64,000 nt of DNA from Escherichia coli (GTDB taxonomy: Bacteria; Pseudomonadota; Gammaproteobacteria; Enterobacterales; Enterobacteriaceae). A model generated the notes under the pieces. It was not told the DNA's origin, did not search any database, and saw only the letters and a program-made list of their open reading frames with translations. A program made the position numbers and the translations under genes. Of this stretch, positions 14,262 through 30,876 are shown in pieces. Positions within the stretch are counted from its first letter, which is position 1. Each line of letters opens with the position of its first letter. The stretch lies in the NCBI RefSeq assembly GCF_003018235.1, contig NZ_CP027437.1. The stretch is one strand, 5' to 3'.

Positions 14262-14338
14262 TGGACCGTCACCGGGGACTCGAACCCCGCACTCTCAACA
14301 TAAAAGGTTGATGCTCTTTCCTGATGAGCTAGTGACGG
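14262..14338 (-). tRNA. Phage tRNA, anticodon UUU (Lys-type by anticodon)
   Basis: A hand-folded 77-nt cloverleaf. Acceptor stem CCGTCAC/GTGACGG. D stem GCTC/GAGC. Anticodon stem TCAAC/GTTGA with loop CTTTTAT. T arm CGGGG-TTCGAGT-CCCCG. Encoded CCA. The C1-G72 pair is unusual. Confidence 0.6.
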
Positions 14339-14340
14339 CA

Positions 14341-14416
14341 TGGTGGCCCTTGCTGGATTTGAACCAGCGACCTGGCGGTTATGAGCCGCTCGCTCTCACC
14401 ACTGAGCTAAAGGGCC
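14341..14416 (-). tRNA. Phage tRNA, anticodon CAU, ileX/ileZ-like (Ile2 type)
   Basis: GGCCCTTTAGCTCAGTGGT...CTCATAA...GGTTCAAATCCAGCAAGGGCCACCA. The acceptor and T arms resemble E. coli ileX as remembered. 76 nt with encoded CCA. Confidence 0.75.
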
Positions 14417-23750: not shown

Positions 23751-23916
23751 TTAATTATCCCCTCTAAGAACAGAGTCATCCAGATTATCTGAATCCTTGT
23801 TGTTGGGGAATAACCAGGCCCACCTCGCCTGATGTGGCTAAAAGCAGGCACATAACAGCTAAGTATTTTCAACCAGAGAGAATCCTTAGCGTTGTGGTGA
23901 ATGCGGCTCAGCGCAC

Positions 23917-24010
23917 GCGGGCTAAGGTTGAGGCTGACAGTCGACCTTCTGTGGATACCCACCCGCCTGGTGTGCAACCTTCGCCAGGCACCGGGAGGCA
24001 CCCGGCACCA
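23917..24010 (+). ncRNA. GC-rich multi-hairpin RNA module in the pL leader (candidate cis-acting or small RNA)
   Basis: Hand-folded stems. 23924-23948: AAGGTTGA/TCGACCTT. 23951-23962: GTGG/CCAC. These two are closed by GCGG/CCGC at 23917-20/23963-66. 23966-23988: CCTGG/CCAGG. 23991-24005: CCGGG/CCCGG. There is no convincing ORF here. Confidence 0.4.
23989..24010 (+). repeat. 22-nt GC-rich hairpin motif, pL-leader copy
   Basis: CACCGGGAGGCACCCGGCACCA, identical to the minus strand of 13485-13506. Confidence 0.9.
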
Positions 24011-24035
24011 CAACTTTATGCTGTGTATAGTCCTG

Positions 24036-24082
24036 GCGGTACCAGTTTGTACCCTTGCTTCCGGCTGGTACCGCTCTTTTTA
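24036..24082 (+). terminator. Rho-independent terminator in the pL leader
   Basis: GCGGTACCAG ... CTGGTACCGC (10-bp stem, 19-nt loop) followed by TCTTTTT. The 3' arm and tail also read CGCTCTTTTTACAA, which is boxA-like. Confidence 0.55.
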
Positions 24083-24170
24083 CAAAACAGAGAAGAGCAT
24101 CACCGGACGACGGGCTCATAACCCAATCCACCCGGGCGGCTGCCACCGCAGGTGTTCTTCTCTGTTTTGT
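24082..24170 (+). repeat. Perfect 15-bp inverted repeat enclosing 59 nt
   Basis: ACAAAACAGAGAAGA (24082-24096) pairs with TCTTCTCTGTTTTGT (24156-24170). The interior has further CACC/GGTG, CGGG/CCCG and GCGG/CCGC pairings. Confidence 0.85.
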
Positions 24171-26488: not shown

Positions 26489-27108
26489 TGACCACATTTA
26501 CCGACAAAGAACTGATTAAAGAAATCAAAGAGCGCATAGGCAGTCTGGATGTGCGAGACAATATTGAGCGCCGTGCTTATGAAATTGCTTTGGTATCGCT
26601 GGAAGCAGAACCGGTGGCATGGCTGCATTCAGACAATGGCTTAGGTATTCCGGCAATAACACGGAGTAAAAACATTGCTGACAGTTGGTTATCAAAGGGC
26701 TGGTATGTTCAGCCGCTATATATAGCCAAGCCAGTGCCGATGGTGCCAGATGTTCGTCCGTCTTTAAATAATGGCATAGTCGGCTTTGATGAAGGCTGGA
26801 ACGCCTGCCGCGCCGCCATGCTTCATGGTGCCGAACCTGTAAGCCAGACTTACAAGTTGAACGAGCTGTCGGGCAACTCTCCGGTAACTCCGGATGGTTG
26901 GATAAGCTGTAGTGAGCGAATGCCGGACGATAAACAGTATGTTTGGTGTTGGGGTAAGTCTTACGGCTGGACTGAGTGCGATACCTTCGAAGGGTATTAC
27001 GATTGGTCGAGAAACAAATGGTGGGCAGTTACTGACGATGGGGAAGAACCGGCATCGAAAGTAACCCACTGGATGCCGCTACCGGAGCCACCGCAGGAGG
27101 TGAAGTAA
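26488..27108 (+). CDS. YfdT-like protein with a C-terminal DUF551
   Basis: GWISCSERMPDDKQYVWCW...THWMPLPEPP is the DUF551 pattern. Confidence 0.55.
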   Translation: MTTFTDKELIKEIKERIGSLDVRDNIERRAYEIALVSLEAEPVAWLHSDNGLGIPAITRSKNIADSWLSKGWYVQPLYIAKPVPMVPDVRPSLNNGIVGFDEGWNACRAAMLHGAEPVSQTYKLNELSGNSPVTPDGWISCSERMPDDKQYVWCWGKSYGWTECDTFEGYYDWSRNKWWAVTDDGEEPASKVTHWMPLPEPPQEVK

Positions 27109-27302
27109 TGAACAACTTAATGACAACTAAACAAGTCGCCGACTTCTGTGGCGTTTCAGTATCGACCGTTCTTCGATGGAACAGCGTAAACAGGAGAACT
27201 GGCCAGAAATACAGGCCTGAGTTTCCAGATCCTGATATTAAATCCTGCCCAAATAAATGGGCATCACACAAGATTTACAGATTTGCGGGAGTGATTGATT
27301 AA
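27108..27302 (+). CDS. AlpA/Xis-type excisionase
   Basis: 64 aa. LMTTKQVADFCGVSVSTVLRWN is the MerR-like HTH seen in AlpA/excisionase proteins. Confidence 0.65.
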   Translation: MNNLMTTKQVADFCGVSVSTVLRWNSVNRRTGQKYRPEFPDPDIKSCPNKWASHKIYRFAGVID

Positions 27303-27584
27303 TATGTATTAGCTTAGATGTGAGCTGACACATCTATGATTAGATGCCAAACCTAATCTGAGCGTCCACTCTTTACCAAGAGCGGACGTTACCAATGACC
27401 ATATGACATGAATCGATAAGATCAAAACATTATCGCCAAGAAATGTCATACCATTGATACAAATAAAATTGATTACCCCCTTACTCTTGTTGAAAAGTTA
27501 GTCGTAGAGTACCTATCGCAATGTAATCAGCTTTAATCATTTGAAAATTACTCCTTAAAAATTAGCTTTTATATACTGAACAAA

Positions 27585-28304
27585 TTAAATCTCTGTTTCT
27601 TTTCCTGTTCGGCTCAACCAATACTCCATTGTTTGAGTATGAATCTTTTCAGCGTATATTTTATCAATTAATTTATCTCGTTTTTCTTTAATGACTTTAC
27701 GCAGTGAATCATATAACATAAAAAAACGTTCATCGTCTTCCTCATTATTACCGTAATTTATTTGATTGAGTTCTGAAAAAATATGATAATACCTTTTTTT
27801 CTTGGTCCCCGGCAATATTAAAACCAAGCCACATTGATCATATTCGAATTCACCTTTATGGGCAGCAAAGTTATGTCTAACATTCATAATAGAATCATGT
27901 AAATCTCTGTATTTTTCTGGCACATGCTTTCTCTGCAATGTGAATCGACGCCCTTTCGCCTCTGTAAAACACTTACCGTAAGTAACAACTTTTGATATAA
28001 ATAAAGACTTTAATATTAGATTCTTTTCTAAATCAGGATAAATAAAGTGTTGTTCTCTATTAATGTTATTACAAATGTTTTTTATTATATTCTCCCAACC
28101 AATAACATTCCGAAGATCTTTATCCAGCAACTGTAAGGCCACATATTGTTCTACAAAGCGGCCTTTTAAAGGTATTCGTGGTAATATTACACCTTTCTGC
28201 TTATAAACTCTTTCTATCGTATTATCTGGATATTGGATCTTCCTTATTTCTATTCCGTCTTCTTCTGATACCCTTACTAATGGTTCATTTTTTAACTTTG
28301 ACAT
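27585..28304 (-). CDS. Orphan AT-rich 239-aa protein with an Rx5H motif (possible HEPN-like Abi)
   Basis: A long ORF in a visibly AT-rich block, flanked by about 280 bp of non-coding DNA on each side, between xis and int. Motif VRHNFAAHKG (R143..H149). Confidence 0.6.
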   Translation of the reverse strand: MSKLKNEPLVRVSEEDGIEIRKIQYPDNTIERVYKQKGVILPRIPLKGRFVEQYVALQLLDKDLRNVIGWENIIKNICNNINREQHFIYPDLEKNLILKSLFISKVVTYGKCFTEAKGRRFTLQRKHVPEKYRDLHDSIMNVRHNFAAHKGEFEYDQCGLVLILPGTKKKRYYHIFSELNQINYGNNEEDDERFFMLYDSLRKVIKEKRDKLIDKIYAEKIHTQTMEYWLSRTGKETEI

Positions 28305-28589
28305 GTTAACCCTCTTAAATAAAAAACTAACTTTATCCAGATAGTGTCCGTTAAGAAGTTTTCGTTACAACTAAGTTTCTAGGTAAATCATGAATCATCC
28401 TATAGTATCAAAAACATTTGGTGGTAAACATCTGCATTTATCAAATAGCAGGAGCGATTTAGGGGCATAGGGATAGTGATGATATCTATACCCGCCCCCT
28501 CTTATGTCAACACAATGGAGTAAACTTAACGCTCACATTTCGCTCAAAGTGTGCTAGGAGATTTGGTTATGTTCAGGTGATACAAACCG

Positions 28590-29813
28590 TCAGTTTGAAT
28601 CAGAGATAGTACAATTAACAATCGATTCAACCCTCTTCCACCATGCCAGGTAAGCTTTACGCTGTTCTTCTAGATAATCGCTCTTATCATAAACTTGCCA
28701 TACCCCTGGCAGCTTATGACCAAGCATAATTTCTGCGATATGAGGCGCAGTAAGATCAGAAAAATTTGTTCGTGCTGTCCGTCTCAAGTCATGAAGAGAC
28801 CAATGAGGGAATTGATATCCTAAACGCCGCCACGCGTACTGCATTAAATTGTAAGGCAGCGACTGTAATGATGTCCTACCGACGGGTTCCCTGCTTCCTT
28901 CCTTAGTAAAAAGCATATCGGAACCGTTGTTCATAGAGATAACGTATTTTATAAGCTCTTCAACCGGTTCAATAATGGGCCGCTTTAGCGGTTTGCCTGT
29001 TATGTCCCCTGTCTTATGTCGTTCAGGTGGTACAGTCCATACCTTATTTATGAAATCAAAATCACCCACCCTAGCAGTAATTAGCTCCGAACTACGGCAA
29101 CCAAAATGCAGTAATAGTTTAATGAAGGCCCGGTATTTGGGAACCATTCTAGAGCCATCGATCGCAGCATAAAGAATTTTAATTTCATCGTGTGTCAGAA
29201 ACCGTTTCTTCTGACCTTTACGGATATCCATATCTTTACCCGTGATATCCGACAGCGGGCGAGTTTCAATAAGCTTTCTCTTATACGCCCAGACATGGGC
29301 CTGCTTTGCGTTAATTAGCAATCGGTCTGCTATTGCTGGAGTCTTAGTGCTAAGAGGCTCCAAGACTTCTAACCAATCATGCAATGTAGCTGCATCGTGA
29401 GGGATATTCCCGATTTTAGAGAACAGGTGCAGCTCAAACGAGCGGAGTATCTGTTCAGAACCCTTTTTATTTTTTACACAATATGCTTCATACCAGGCAC
29501 GGATCACAGACTCTACCGTCATGGCTTCAGTAGCTTTTCGTTTTTCAGCCTGCTTGACCAATCGTGGATTACGGTTTGACTCGAGTTCACCACGGAGACG
29601 GATAACTTCTTCTCTGGCCTCTTTTAATCCAGTTGCCGGGTAAGTTCCGATATCAAGACGCTCACCTTTCCCTGCCCATTGATAACGATATTGGAACACT
29701 ACGCGACCTTTCGGTGATACTCTGACAGACAGACCATCACGATCGGATTTAACCAAAACCTTATCACGTTCCTTTCCAACGACTGAACGCAACCACGCAT
29801 CAGACAGCGCCAT
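28590..29813 (-). CDS. int: Tyrosine integrase (P4-type, with DUF4102 N-terminus)
   Basis: MALSDAWLRSV...GLSVRVSPKGRVVFQYRY N-terminal arm domain. The C-terminal catalytic region contains HDLRRT...GH and a terminal Y region. Confidence 0.9.
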   Translation of the reverse strand: MALSDAWLRSVVGKERDKVLVKSDRDGLSVRVSPKGRVVFQYRYQWAGKGERLDIGTYPATGLKEAREEVIRLRGELESNRNPRLVKQAEKRKATEAMTVESVIRAWYEAYCVKNKKGSEQILRSFELHLFSKIGNIPHDAATLHDWLEVLEPLSTKTPAIADRLLINAKQAHVWAYKRKLIETRPLSDITGKDMDIRKGQKKRFLTHDEIKILYAAIDGSRMVPKYRAFIKLLLHFGCRSSELITARVGDFDFINKVWTVPPERHKTGDITGKPLKRPIIEPVEELIKYVISMNNGSDMLFTKEGSREPVGRTSLQSLPYNLMQYAWRRLGYQFPHWSLHDLRRTARTNFSDLTAPHIAEIMLGHKLPGVWQVYDKSDYLEEQRKAYLAWWKRVESIVNCTISDSN

Positions 29814-30033
29814 TACTCACCTTGTACAAATCGCAAAACACCTCTGCTGCTTTGTACATTATGTACAAGCACATGTACAGATTTTTGATGAAAGCAACCT
29901 GATCGATTTAAAGTTACATGAAAGAATTTTCAATTAAAGAAGCCACATAACTATATGTATTTAAATGATTTATATAGCTAGACCTCAATTAACTGAAAGG
30001 ATTTTGAAAGAGTAAAAGAGCTTTAATTTGGGA

Positions 30034-30108
30034 TTAATTATTGGGGTGAGAAATAATGGCAAAAGTGCGGCGCTTCGCCACCTCTTGCAAATAAGGAGAC
30101 AACGTCAT
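30034..30108 (-). pseudogene. prfC: prfC 5' remnant (first 22 codons of RF3) fused to phage sequence
   Basis: The minus strand reads [22 protein letters not shown], then NN*. RF3 continues DAGKTT after SHP. Similarity ends at about 30043. Confidence 0.85.
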
Positions 30109-30198
30109 AATTCTTTCTTCTTGAGTAAGCGGCATCGCGCCGCGCTTGTTGAAAACGAAAAATTGCGGCTATTTTACCCATCAACGGGGGGGAGGCAA

Positions 30199-30876
30199 TC
30201 AGTGTTTACACAGGAGCTGCTCCAGTTCGTGCAACGAAGAAACGGTCCAGGTGGGCGCGATGCCTTCTGGTTGCTCGCGATTGTGCGCATTCAGCCAGCA
30301 GGTCGCAAGCCCGGCGTTGATGCCACCGAGAATATCGGACTCGGCAGTGTCGCCAACCATCAGCACGCGTGAACGGTCAGGATTGCCCGCCTGTTCCAGC
30401 GCATAATCGAAAATTTTCTTATTCGGTTTGGCAACGCCAACTTCTTCGGAAATCACCAGCAAATCGAAATAATCACGCAGGCCCGTGCGTTCCAGACGCA
30501 CTTGCTGCAAGGCGCTAAAGCCGTTGGTGATGATGCCAATTTTAGCGTTGCCACGAATGGCGTTAAGCAGAGAAACCGCGCCCGGCAGCGGCGTACAGAT
30601 TTCCGCCATCGCATTAATAAAGGCTTCGTTGAGTTTACCCGGCTCGACGTTCAGCCGTTCGGCCCAGCTCTCAAACCGCCCGTGCTGAAGCTGTAATGAA
30701 GTGATCGCGCCGTTTTGATAATCCACCCACAGTGGCTTGTTAACGGCCTGATAGTCCTGAAAATCTTCAGCGGTAAAGGTGACGCTGTAATCAAGAAACA
30801 TCCGCTGCAGGCCGGTGAATGAGTCAAAGGTAAACAGCGTTTCATCGGCATCAAAGAAAATCCAGTCCCACTTCAT
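30199..30876 (-). CDS. yjjG: Pyrimidine 5'-nucleotidase YjjG (HAD family)
   Basis: 225 aa. [15 protein letters not shown] carries the HAD motif I. Synteny with rimI/holD. Confidence 0.9.

What the first reader, a model, noticed from the sequence alone, without database searches (positions are those of the whole stretch)
27585..28304. AT-rich orphan gene with an Rx5H motif between excisionase and integrase
**What the sequence shows.**
- A 239-aa ORF lies on the strand opposite the pL operon.
- It sits in a block that is visibly more AT-rich than the surrounding phage DNA (composition not computed).
- Non-coding AT-rich spacers of about 280 bp isolate it on both sides.
- I recognise no family.
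- It contains VRHNFAAHKG (R143-x5-H149, nt 27858-27878). This fits the Rx4-6H signature of HEPN RNases used by many abortive-infection and toxin proteins.

**Interpretation.** The int-proximal end of temperate phages is a known hotspot for lysogen-expressed defence cargo. The motif alone is weak evidence.
Basis: inference. Interest (0 to 1): 0.55.

Follow-up and report, generated by a model that had tools for sequence, protein, structure and literature searches.

The report
Solo HEPN-like prophage cargo gene
A 239-aa gene between a prophage's integrase and excisionase belongs to a widespread, unnamed family of stand-alone HEPN-type (AbiU2-like) predicted RNases found in swappable cargo slots of phages and other mobile elements, which makes it a plausible but untested one-gene anti-phage (abortive infection) candidate.

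The parts
27396..28539 (.). Variable AT-rich cargo cassette in the int-xis slot (about 1.15 kb). Backbone homology to prophages with other cargo ends at 27324-27395 on the xis side and resumes at 28540-28608 on the int side.
   Evidence: BLASTN of the window against seven alternative-cargo loci; GC 0.29-0.34
27585..28304 (-). 239-aa ORF encoding a solo HEPN-like (AbiU2-like) protein, annotated as 'hypothetical protein' in RefSeq (WP_000040219.1 in the 99.2%-identical locus L003) and as gp29 in phage 2H10
28310..28316 (-). Shine-Dalgarno AAGAGGG, 5 nt upstream of the ATG
   Evidence: sequence read directly; conserved in L016 and L018
28305..28461 (-). The gene's own 5' region. It is conserved with L016, where the gene sits behind umuC in a different backbone, and contains an extended -10-like TGATACTAT. 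Promoter function is not shown.
   Evidence: the consensus promoter scan found nothing convincing
28197..28280 (-). N-terminal three-stranded beta-meander (residues 9-36). The 184-aa AbiU2-labelled protein P0190 is too short to contain it.
   Evidence: AF2 models; hhalign aligned ranges
27642..28160 (-). HEPN-like helical core (residues 49-221): H1 49-79, H2 92-111, conserved insert 112-129, H3 130-148, H4 188-221
27858..27878 (-). R143-H-N-F-A-A-H149, the predicted catalytic Rx5H motif at the C-terminal end of helix 3
   Evidence: aligned to R105-H111 (RHAYIAH) of AbiU2-labelled P0190
27948..27980 (-). Y109-G-K-C-F-T-E-A-K-G-R119, the invariant end of H2 plus the insert (Y109 and R119 invariant, K111 in 103/106). 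It aligns to IGRSF..GK of AbiU2-like proteins.
28116..28118 (-). Invariant D63 within the family consensus I-E-K-D-L-R. E61-x3-R65 resembles the HEPN Ex3[KR] element but is predicted on helix 1.
   Evidence: definition
27897..27899 (-). Invariant H136 on helix 3, two turns before R143. It is not part of the canonical HEPN signature.
27762..27839 (-). Beta-hairpin insertion between H3 and H4 (residues 156-181). It begins with an always-acidic residue, E/D156.
28590..29813 (-). Tyrosine integrase, co-oriented and upstream. It forms the prophage end next to yjjG and is one flank of the cargo slot.
27108..27302 (+). Excisionase (AlpA-like), convergent with the cargo gene. It is the other flank of the slot.

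Best explanation
The ORF encodes a stand-alone HEPN-superfamily protein. It has an AbiU2-like four-helix core carrying an R-[HN]-x4-H active-site motif, plus an N-terminal beta-meander and a beta-hairpin insert. It travels, with its own 5' region, as a single-gene cassette in the accessory slot beside the integrase of a 2H10-like lambdoid prophage.

Most likely mechanism, by analogy with HepS, Tha, PrrC/RloC and HepT:
- The protein is made in the lysogen and held inactive as an oligomer.
- An infection cue from a superinfecting phage brings two Rx5H motifs together.
- The enzyme then cleaves RNA (tRNA, rRNA or mRNA) without a metal ion and aborts the infection.

Shown here: the gene is real and under family-wide constraint, the motif is invariant, the predicted fold and motif placement are HEPN-like, the gene is solo, and it occupies swappable cargo slots on several kinds of mobile element.

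Inferred: expression in the lysogen, oligomerisation, RNase activity, the trigger, and the anti-phage phenotype.
For: Family and constraint.
- 25 clusters in Enterobacterales and 496 representatives overall, nearly all 220-260 aa single-domain proteins.
- Invariant D63, Y109, R119, H136 and R143. H149 is in 105/106, K111 in 103/106, and E/D156 is always acidic.

HEPN criteria from PMC3710099.
- The residue after R is H 62, N 43, D 1 of 106.
- The H2-H3 insert is present.

Fold and profile links.
- Pfam: HEPN_AbiU2 is the only family hit by more than 2 of 106 members (6 members).
- Natural members P0105 (E 0.0022, mapping to query 68-149), P0171 and P0138 have it as their only hit. A subcluster consensus scores 20.1 bits at E 4.9e-4. 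All hits share one register.
- The subcluster profile A4 reached just one non-family protein, AbiU2-labelled P0190, whose motif is RHAYIAH.
- hhalign A4 vs P0190: 91.9%, E 6.9e-7. A4 vs A5: 93.1%, E 3.2e-7 over 104 columns. A2 vs A5: 32.8%, E 4.6e-4. Same register throughout.

Context.
- The cassette is replaced by a dGTPase defence gene and at least five other cargos beside a 93-96% identical integrase gene.
- Homologues are the last gene before a leuZ att copy, behind umuDC, between lysis and terminase genes, on a conjugative element beside a Schlafen-like ATPase, and beside a PARIS-like AAA_15/DUF4435 pair.
- There is no conserved neighbour anywhere.
- Precedent for solo prophage HEPN Abi: HepS.
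Against: - The query itself has no Pfam, NCBIfam, PADLOC or PDB-sequence hit. All AbiU2 Pfam scores are below the 26.8-bit cut-off.
- The whole-family profile reaches only 33% hhalign probability.
- P0190's own AbiU2 label is 'weak'.
- The conserved acidic element is predicted on helix 1, not helix 2.
- Four further invariant residues (D63, Y109, R119, H136) are not part of the canonical HEPN site. They could define a different pocket.
- The eponymous AbiUii was never shown to defend and in fact lowered AbiUi activity.
- The promoter and terminator scans found no convincing promoter or terminator.
- Two of 23 viral-contig copies are frameshifted.
- There is no experimental evidence of any kind.
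Confidence: 0.5

Rival explanations
1. It is a HEPN-like RNase that works for the phage itself and does not protect the host. It could be a counter-defence or takeover factor, for example degrading host or competitor RNAs during induction or infection, or processing phage transcripts.
For: Accessory slots also hold anti-defence genes. In the P0128 context the gene is co-oriented with late genes, between the lysis and terminase genes. The eponymous AbiUii reduced, and did not confer, resistance.
Against: In the window the gene is convergent with the early-left operon and lies beside int, a position typical of lysogen-expressed morons. Homologues also occur on non-phage integrative and conjugative elements. 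The same slot carries a bona fide defence gene in other strains.
Confidence: 0.15
2. It is the toxin of an addiction or toxin-antitoxin module that stabilises the element, with an unrecognised antitoxin (a small RNA or peptide in the spacers, or a host factor).
For: Many HEPN proteins are TA toxins (HepT/MntA, RnlA/RnlB). About 280-bp AT-rich spacers flank the gene. A 19-aa ORF with its own SD lies just downstream at 27480-27539.
Against: No neighbouring ORF is conserved across contexts. The tiny ORF and the downstream spacer are conserved only in near-identical copies. There is no Rfam hit, tandem repeat or strong inverted repeat in the spacers. There is no MNT or other antitoxin-like partner.
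Confidence: 0.1
3. It is a non-catalytic helical-bundle protein, such as a sensor, adaptor or superinfection-exclusion factor. Its invariant polar residues would bind a ligand or partner and would not cleave RNA. The HEPN resemblance would be convergent or vestigial.
Against: The exact R-[HND]-x4-A-H form, its helix-3-end position and the H2-H3 insert all fit the catalytic HEPN definition. Per that paper, non-catalytic HEPN domains typically lose the motif. hhalign gives 93% to AbiU2-like proteins.
Confidence: 0.12

Closest known systems
HEPN_AbiU2 family (Pfam PF18734; type member AbiUii of Lactococcus lactis)
   Same: - It is the only Pfam family recurrently hit by family members, always in the same register.
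- The AbiU2-labelled protein P0190 has an identical motif form, R-H-x-Y-x-A-H (Rx5H), and the preceding G-[KR]-x-F...G-[RK] element.
- hhalign probability is 92-93% with a family subcluster.
   Different: - All scores are below the Pfam gathering threshold, and the query itself scores nothing.
- This family has an extra N-terminal beta-meander and is about 55 aa longer than P0190.
- It is always solo. AbiU2 proteins are described in R-M or Sel1 operons, and P0190 sits in a type III R-M operon.
- AbiUii has no demonstrated RNase or defence activity.
HepT (DUF86) HEPN toxins of HepT/MntA toxin-antitoxin systems (PDB 7ae2, 5yep)
   Different: - Sequence identity is about 10%.
- HepT uses Rx4H followed by x-Y (R102, H107, Y109 per the PDB titles). 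Here the motif is Rx5H followed by [SAK]-G.
- There is no adjacent MNT antitoxin.
- This family has extra beta elements.
HepS, the solo HEPN abortive-infection protein of the Salmonella prophage Gifsy-1 (PMC13043305)
   Same: It is a single HEPN-domain protein with no partner gene, in an accessory slot of a lambdoid prophage, with an Rx4-6H motif. It is the working model for mechanism: constitutive expression, an autoinhibited oligomer, activation by a phage protein, and tRNA cleavage.
   Different: - No detectable sequence relationship.
[quoted passage not shown]
- The trigger and substrate here are unknown.
Tha, the tail-activated HEPN defence system of Staphylococcus aureus prophages (PMC11087260)
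   Same: It is a prophage-encoded HEPN RNase defence system activated by a structural protein of the incoming phage.
   Different: Different host phylum and architecture. The comparison rests on the literature only; no sequence test was done here.
Defence hotspots on prophages and satellites (P2/P4 hotspots, PMC9122126; int-adjacent cargo)
   Same: Conserved flanks surround a swappable, AT-rich cassette, one gene or a few genes long. One alternative cargo is a known defence gene (dGTPase).
   Different: This particular slot (int-xis of 2H10-like and Stx phages integrated at yjjG) was not found described in the papers searched. Most of its cargos have no known family.

Membership tests
HEPN superfamily (definition: Anantharaman et al. 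2013, PMC3710099) | All-alpha core of four helices forming an up-down bundle of two alpha-hairpins | tested here: met
HEPN superfamily (definition: Anantharaman et al. 2013, PMC3710099) | [quoted passage not shown] | tested here: met
   R143-x5-H149 ends helix 130-148. R143 is in 106/106 and H149 in 105/106 members.
HEPN superfamily (definition: Anantharaman et al. 2013, PMC3710099) | [quoted passage not shown] | tested here: met
   Position 144 is H in 62, N in 43 and D in 1 of 106 members, with no other residue.
HEPN superfamily (definition: Anantharaman et al. 2013, PMC3710099) | [quoted passage not shown] | tested here: met
   Non-helical segment 112-129 between H2 and H3. Unusually, it is well conserved (F113, G118, R119).
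HEPN superfamily (definition: Anantharaman et al. 2013, PMC3710099) | Second conserved acidic residue, typically Ex3[KR], on helix 2 and close to the motif | tested here: inconclusive
   Invariant D63 and the family consensus E61-K-D-L-R65 fit the Ex3[KR] pattern, but they are predicted on helix 1.
HEPN superfamily (definition: Anantharaman et al. 2013, PMC3710099) | Statistically supported profile match to an established HEPN family | tested here: inconclusive
   - Subcluster A4 against AbiU2-like A5: hhalign 93.1%, E 3.2e-7.
- Whole family A2: 32.8%, E 4.6e-4.
- Close family A1: 13%.
- Pfam hits reach at most 20.1 bits against a 26.8-bit cut-off.
- The bridging protein's own label is 'weak'.
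HEPN superfamily (definition: Anantharaman et al. 2013, PMC3710099) | Dimerisation that juxtaposes two Rx4-6H motifs; metal-independent RNase activity | not testable with these tools
   No multimer modelling or biochemistry is available here.
Pfam HEPN_AbiU2 (PF18734) | Score at or above the curated gathering threshold (26.8 bits) | tested here: not met
   The query has no hit at E<=10. The best natural member scores 17.9 bits (P0105). The best consensus scores 20.1 bits.
Pfam HEPN_AbiU2 (PF18734) | Genomic association with R-M or Sel1-repeat genes | tested here: not met
   The gene is solo in every context examined. P0190 itself does sit in an R-M operon.
HepT/MntA (HEPN/MNT) type II/VII toxin-antitoxin | Adjacent MNT nucleotidyltransferase antitoxin gene | tested here: not met
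   The neighbours are int and xis here. Elsewhere they are int, umuC, Rz/terminase or a primase. No MNT gene was seen.
HepT/MntA (HEPN/MNT) type II/VII toxin-antitoxin | Rx4HxY motif, with the tyrosine that is AMPylated | tested here: not met
   H149 is followed by K150-G151. Position 151 is G in 102/106 members. The spacing is x5, not x4.
HepS-type solo prophage HEPN Abi (PMC13043305) | Single HEPN-domain protein, no partner gene, in a lambdoid prophage accessory slot | tested here: met
HepS-type solo prophage HEPN Abi (PMC13043305) | Sequence or structural relatedness to HepS | tested here: inconclusive
HepS-type solo prophage HEPN Abi (PMC13043305) | Demonstrated phage-triggered anticodon nuclease activity and abortive infection | not testable with these tools
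   Needs experiments.
Any catalogued defence system (PADLOC-DB v2.0.0) | Match to a system-specific HMM | tested here: not met
   The query has 0 hits at E<=10. None of the 13 families is hit by more than one of 106 members.

The most novel reading that the evidence does not exclude
The family is not just another HEPN RNase. It could be a self-contained sensor-effector in which a second invariant cluster (D63, Y109, K111, R119, H136, at the end of the bundle that simple helix geometry predicts is opposite the Rx5H motif), together with the family-specific beta-meander and beta-hairpin, forms a trigger-binding or ligand-binding site. That site would allosterically switch the HEPN site on. This would define a new, widespread (about 500 clusters) single-gene immune family spread across prophage att-proximal, lysis-terminase and conjugative-element slots. 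A further speculative extension: the tRNA-Lys(UUU) and tRNA-Met genes of the same prophage (14262-14416) could buffer self-damage, if the enzyme is an anticodon nuclease.
Probability: 0.15. Interest if true: 0.7.

Novelty: new member of a known kind. Interest (0 to 1): 0.45.

Why it matters
If confirmed, this would add an unnamed family of about 500 sequence clusters to the short list of single-protein HEPN abortive-infection systems, of which HepS is the best-understood example. It would give the AbiU2 branch of HEPN its first functional anchor, because AbiUii itself was never shown to defend. It would also flag the int-xis slot of yjjG-integrating lambdoid and Stx prophages as a defence hotspot. 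That slot is present in about 1,100 of 5,426 complete E. coli genomes, and at least five of its other cargos have no known family. In practical terms, the gene is small, solo and carried by an isolated phage (2H10), so the hypothesis is cheap to test. If it is not confirmed, the gene remains an ordinary uncharacterised moron.

Tried and rejected
- Direct family searches with the query (Pfam, NCBIfam, PADLOC, PDB sequences) gave nothing useful.
- Whole-family profile against PDB sequences: only a P450 at E 2. Subcluster profile: only a designed protein.
- Foldseek against PDB: no hit with E<=0.001. AFDB50 was not installed.
- The whole-family consensus and the nine most divergent members did not hit AbiU2. 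The link only appeared in particular subclusters.
- The profile search with A2 in the word-indexed database did not leave the family.
- The HEPN paper's supplement is not held, so no curated AbiU2 alignment was available.
- I first read L020 as a 65%-identical allele beside a 99.8%-identical integrase. This was wrong: it is a frameshifted copy, 98.9% identical in DNA with 3 indels, as is L019.
- The tiny downstream ORF as a conserved partner: rejected, because it is conserved only in near-identical copies.
- An RNA antitoxin or structured RNA in the spacers: no Rfam hit, no tandem repeats, only weak inverted repeats.
- The sigma-70 and terminator scans found nothing above shuffle expectation.
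- ARAGORN and Rfam did not call the att-site tRNA fragments. They were confirmed by BLAST against K-12 leuZ.
- Literature searches by accession found nothing. The gene is absent from the held DefensePredictor tables, some of which are truncated. Brenes & Laub 2025 is not held.
- No domain fusions occur in longer family members.

Full report
**1.

The ORF at 27585-28304 (-) encodes 239 aa from an ATG. It is preceded by a Shine-Dalgarno AAGAGGG five bases upstream.

It lies between an AlpA-type excisionase (27108-27302, +) and a tyrosine integrase (28590-29813, -). It is co-oriented with int and convergent with the + strand early-left genes.

GC falls to 0.29-0.34 across about 27400-28450, against 0.42-0.54 in the flanks. 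The spacers are 282 and 285 bp. R143-H149 maps to 27858-27878, exactly as stated.

The surrounding element is a lambdoid prophage 99% identical in this region to Escherichia phage 2H10 (Glaedevirus). It is integrated next to yjjG-rimI-holD-rsmC. The cassette occurs in 70 of 5,426 complete E. coli genomes and is always annotated as a hypothetical protein.

**2. Is the motif more than chance?**

Not on its own. 78% of shuffles of this protein contain at least one Rx4-6H, and the protein has a second, unconserved match at R120-x6-H127.

The weight comes from homologues. The word-indexed search found 25 clusters, all from Enterobacterales where named. The exhaustive HMMER search found 496 representatives at E<=1e-3, almost all single-domain proteins of 220-260 aa. 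One distant cluster contains an Alphaproteobacterial MAG protein, and others are from Legionella.

In a 106-sequence alignment at 20-54% identity to the query (A2):
- D63, Y109, R119, H136 and R143 are invariant.
- H149 is present in 105/106, A148 in 102/106, G151 in 102/106 and K111 in 103/106.
- Position 156 is always E or D.
- The residue after R143 is H (62), N (43) or D (1) and nothing else.

**3. Fold and family.**

The HEPN superfamily paper (PMC3710099) gives these defining features:
- A four-helix bundle made of two alpha-hairpins.
- An insert between helices 2 and 3.
- A polar N, D or H after the R.
- Often an upstream Ex3[KR].

Two AlphaFold2 models (pLDDT 86.8 with 22 sequences, 94.0 and pTM 0.86 with 106) agree on the architecture. 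In order: a three-stranded beta-meander (9-36), H1 49-79, H2 92-111, a non-helical insert 112-129, H3 130-148 ending in R143...H149, a beta-hairpin 156-181, and H4 188-221. So the placement of the motif, the residue after R and the insert all meet the definition.

The acidic element is ambiguous. Invariant D63, within the family consensus E-K-D-L-R, fits Ex3[KR] but sits on predicted helix 1. I could not measure distances because model coordinates are not exposed.

**4. Sequence link to AbiU2.**

The query has no Pfam hit. When all 106 members were scanned, HEPN_AbiU2 (PF18734) was the only family hit by more than two members: six members, best E 0.0022.

Individual scans gave these results:
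- P0105: E 0.0022, its residues 69-139, equivalent to query 68-149, matched to profile positions 68-133.
- P0171: E 0.011.
- P0138: E 0.015.
- P0045: E 0.29.
- A six-member subcluster consensus: E 4.9e-4, 20.1 bits.

For most of these, AbiU2 was the only or the top hit. All of them place profile positions about 113-142 on the R...H region. All scores are below the 26.8-bit gathering threshold.

A profile of that subcluster (A4) searched against 5.8 billion proteins reached exactly one non-family protein within E<=10. This was P0190, which carries a precomputed PF18734 label. The label is marked 'weak', and P0190 sits in a type III R-M operon, as described for AbiU2. P0190's motif is S-L-R-H-A-Y-I-A-H-A. 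It has the same x5 spacing, the same H after R and the same A-H ending as R-H-N-F-A-A-H here.

hhalign results:
- A4 vs P0190: 91.9%, E 6.9e-7, 103 columns.
- A4 vs A5, an eight-sequence profile of P0190 relatives: 93.1%, E 3.2e-7.
- Whole-family A2 vs A5: 32.8%, E 4.6e-4.
- Close-family A1 vs A5: 13%.

The register is identical in all four. It also aligns Y-G-K-C-F...G-R-R-F with I-G-R-S-F...G-K-T-F.

My reading is that this is a sister family of AbiU2 within the HEPN superfamily (about 0.8 confidence). It is not a member of the Pfam family as curated.

**5. Context.**

BLAST against seven loci that share the flanks delimits a variable cassette at about 27396-28539, which coincides with the AT-rich block. 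A 93-96% identical integrase gene at yjjG occurs in about 1,100 complete E. coli genomes.

Beside it, the slot holds:
- A dGTPase (PADLOC E 8.7e-105).
- Cargos with no Pfam or PADLOC hit: 331 aa, a 160 + 150 aa pair, 413 aa, 342 aa, and 517 aa in Stx1a and Stx2c phages.

Homologues of the gene appear in unrelated backbones, always alone:
- Directly after a different integrase, 160-290 bp before a partial leuZ tRNA copy, i.e. the last gene before att (L004, L025, L021, L027).
- After umuDC (L016, L018, L021, L022).
- Between the lysis and terminase genes of another lambdoid prophage (P0128, about 21% identity).
- On a conjugative element next to a Schlafen-like ATPase (P0069).
- Next to an icd fragment (P0009).
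- In Yersinia, next to an AAA_15/AAA_21 + DUF4435 (PARIS-like) pair.

The window and L016 share about 150 nt of 5' sequence despite their different backbones, so the gene moves with its own upstream region.

There is no conserved partner ORF, no Rfam hit and no repeats in the spacers. The promoter and terminator scans were uninformative.

**6. Mechanism.**

The best-supported model is a solo HEPN RNase that serves as prophage-encoded abortive-infection defence. The closest functional precedent is HepS of Gifsy-1. HepS is one HEPN protein, constitutively made and held as an autoinhibited tetramer. A phage tail-tip protein opens it, and it then cleaves tRNA anticodon loops (PMC13043305). Tha is another precedent (PMC11087260).

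Everything beyond fold, motif and context is inference. I put the full statement at 0.5.

The rivals are:
- A phage-serving RNase or counter-defence factor (0.15).
- A TA or addiction toxin with a hidden antitoxin (0.10).
- A non-catalytic bundle protein (0.12).

One caution: the name-giving AbiUii was never shown to defend. AbiUi alone suffices, and AbiUii lowers the activity (PMC13064643). The nearest sequence family therefore brings no biochemistry with it.

**7. Novelty and score.**

- No PADLOC model matches.
- No paper in the library mentions the accessions.
- The gene is absent from the held DefensePredictor tables.
- One directly relevant paper (Brenes & Laub 2025) could not be read.

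A specialist would not be surprised to find a HEPN protein in a prophage moron slot. The interest lies in four points: the family is large, it is unnamed, it is solo, and it has extra invariant residues and beta elements of unknown role.

Verdict: a real feature, a new member of a known kind, interest 0.45.

Noticed in passing
window 23861-24083 (+): Full-length match to the Rfam sRNA family STnc100 (44.5 bits against a gathering score of 47, E 3.9e-8). It lies in an unannotated GC-rich gap between the LexA-like repressor gene and the yfdP-like gene of the prophage.
   Followed up: partly
window 14262-14338 (-) and 14341-14416 (-): The prophage carries tRNA-Lys(UUU) and tRNA-Met(CAU) genes next to the antiterminator Q gene. 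HEPN defence enzymes are often anticodon nucleases, and phage tRNAs can replace cleaved ones. A link to the cargo gene is conceivable but entirely untested.
   Followed up: partly
window 27480-27539 (-): A 19-aa ORF (MIKADYIAIGTLRLTFQQE) with a strong AAGGAG Shine-Dalgarno lies 45 bp downstream of the cargo gene. It is conserved only in near-identical copies, so it is not a family-wide partner.
   Followed up: partly
L019 1510-2227 and L020 1510-2226 (IMG/VR contigs): Two of 23 viral-contig copies of the gene are frameshifted at A-runs, although their DNA is 99% identical to the window. This could be sequencing error at homopolymers or genuine inactivation.
   Followed up: partly
L029 977-1972; L030 699-1181 and 1223-1675; L031 799-2040; L032 723-1751; L002 1930-3483: Five other cargos occupy the same int-proximal slot: 331 aa, a 160 + 150 aa pair, 413 aa, 342 aa, and 517 aa (the last in Stx1a and Stx2c phages). 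None has a Pfam or PADLOC hit. A sixth cargo is a dGTPase defence gene (L028). The slot looks like an unexplored defence hotspot.
   Followed up: partly
L004 2687-6702 (Yersinia sp. HM-2024 chromosome): A 42%-identical homologue is the last gene of an element integrated at tRNA-Leu(UAA). It follows an AAA_15/AAA_21 ATPase, a DUF4435 protein (a PARIS-like pair) and an integrase.
   Followed up: partly
L022 8223-8999 (-): A 258-aa ORF about 1.5 kb from a family homologue begins MASVFLSHNSNDKPFVRRLAADLQEQGHVVWIDEAEI..., which looks TIR-like by eye. It was not scanned.
   Followed up: no
window about 29900-30200 (between int and yjjG): RefSeq annotates a 69-bp 'incomplete hypothetical protein' pseudogene at the equivalent position in all related loci. 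It is probably a remnant of the att region at the prophage-chromosome junction.
   Followed up: no
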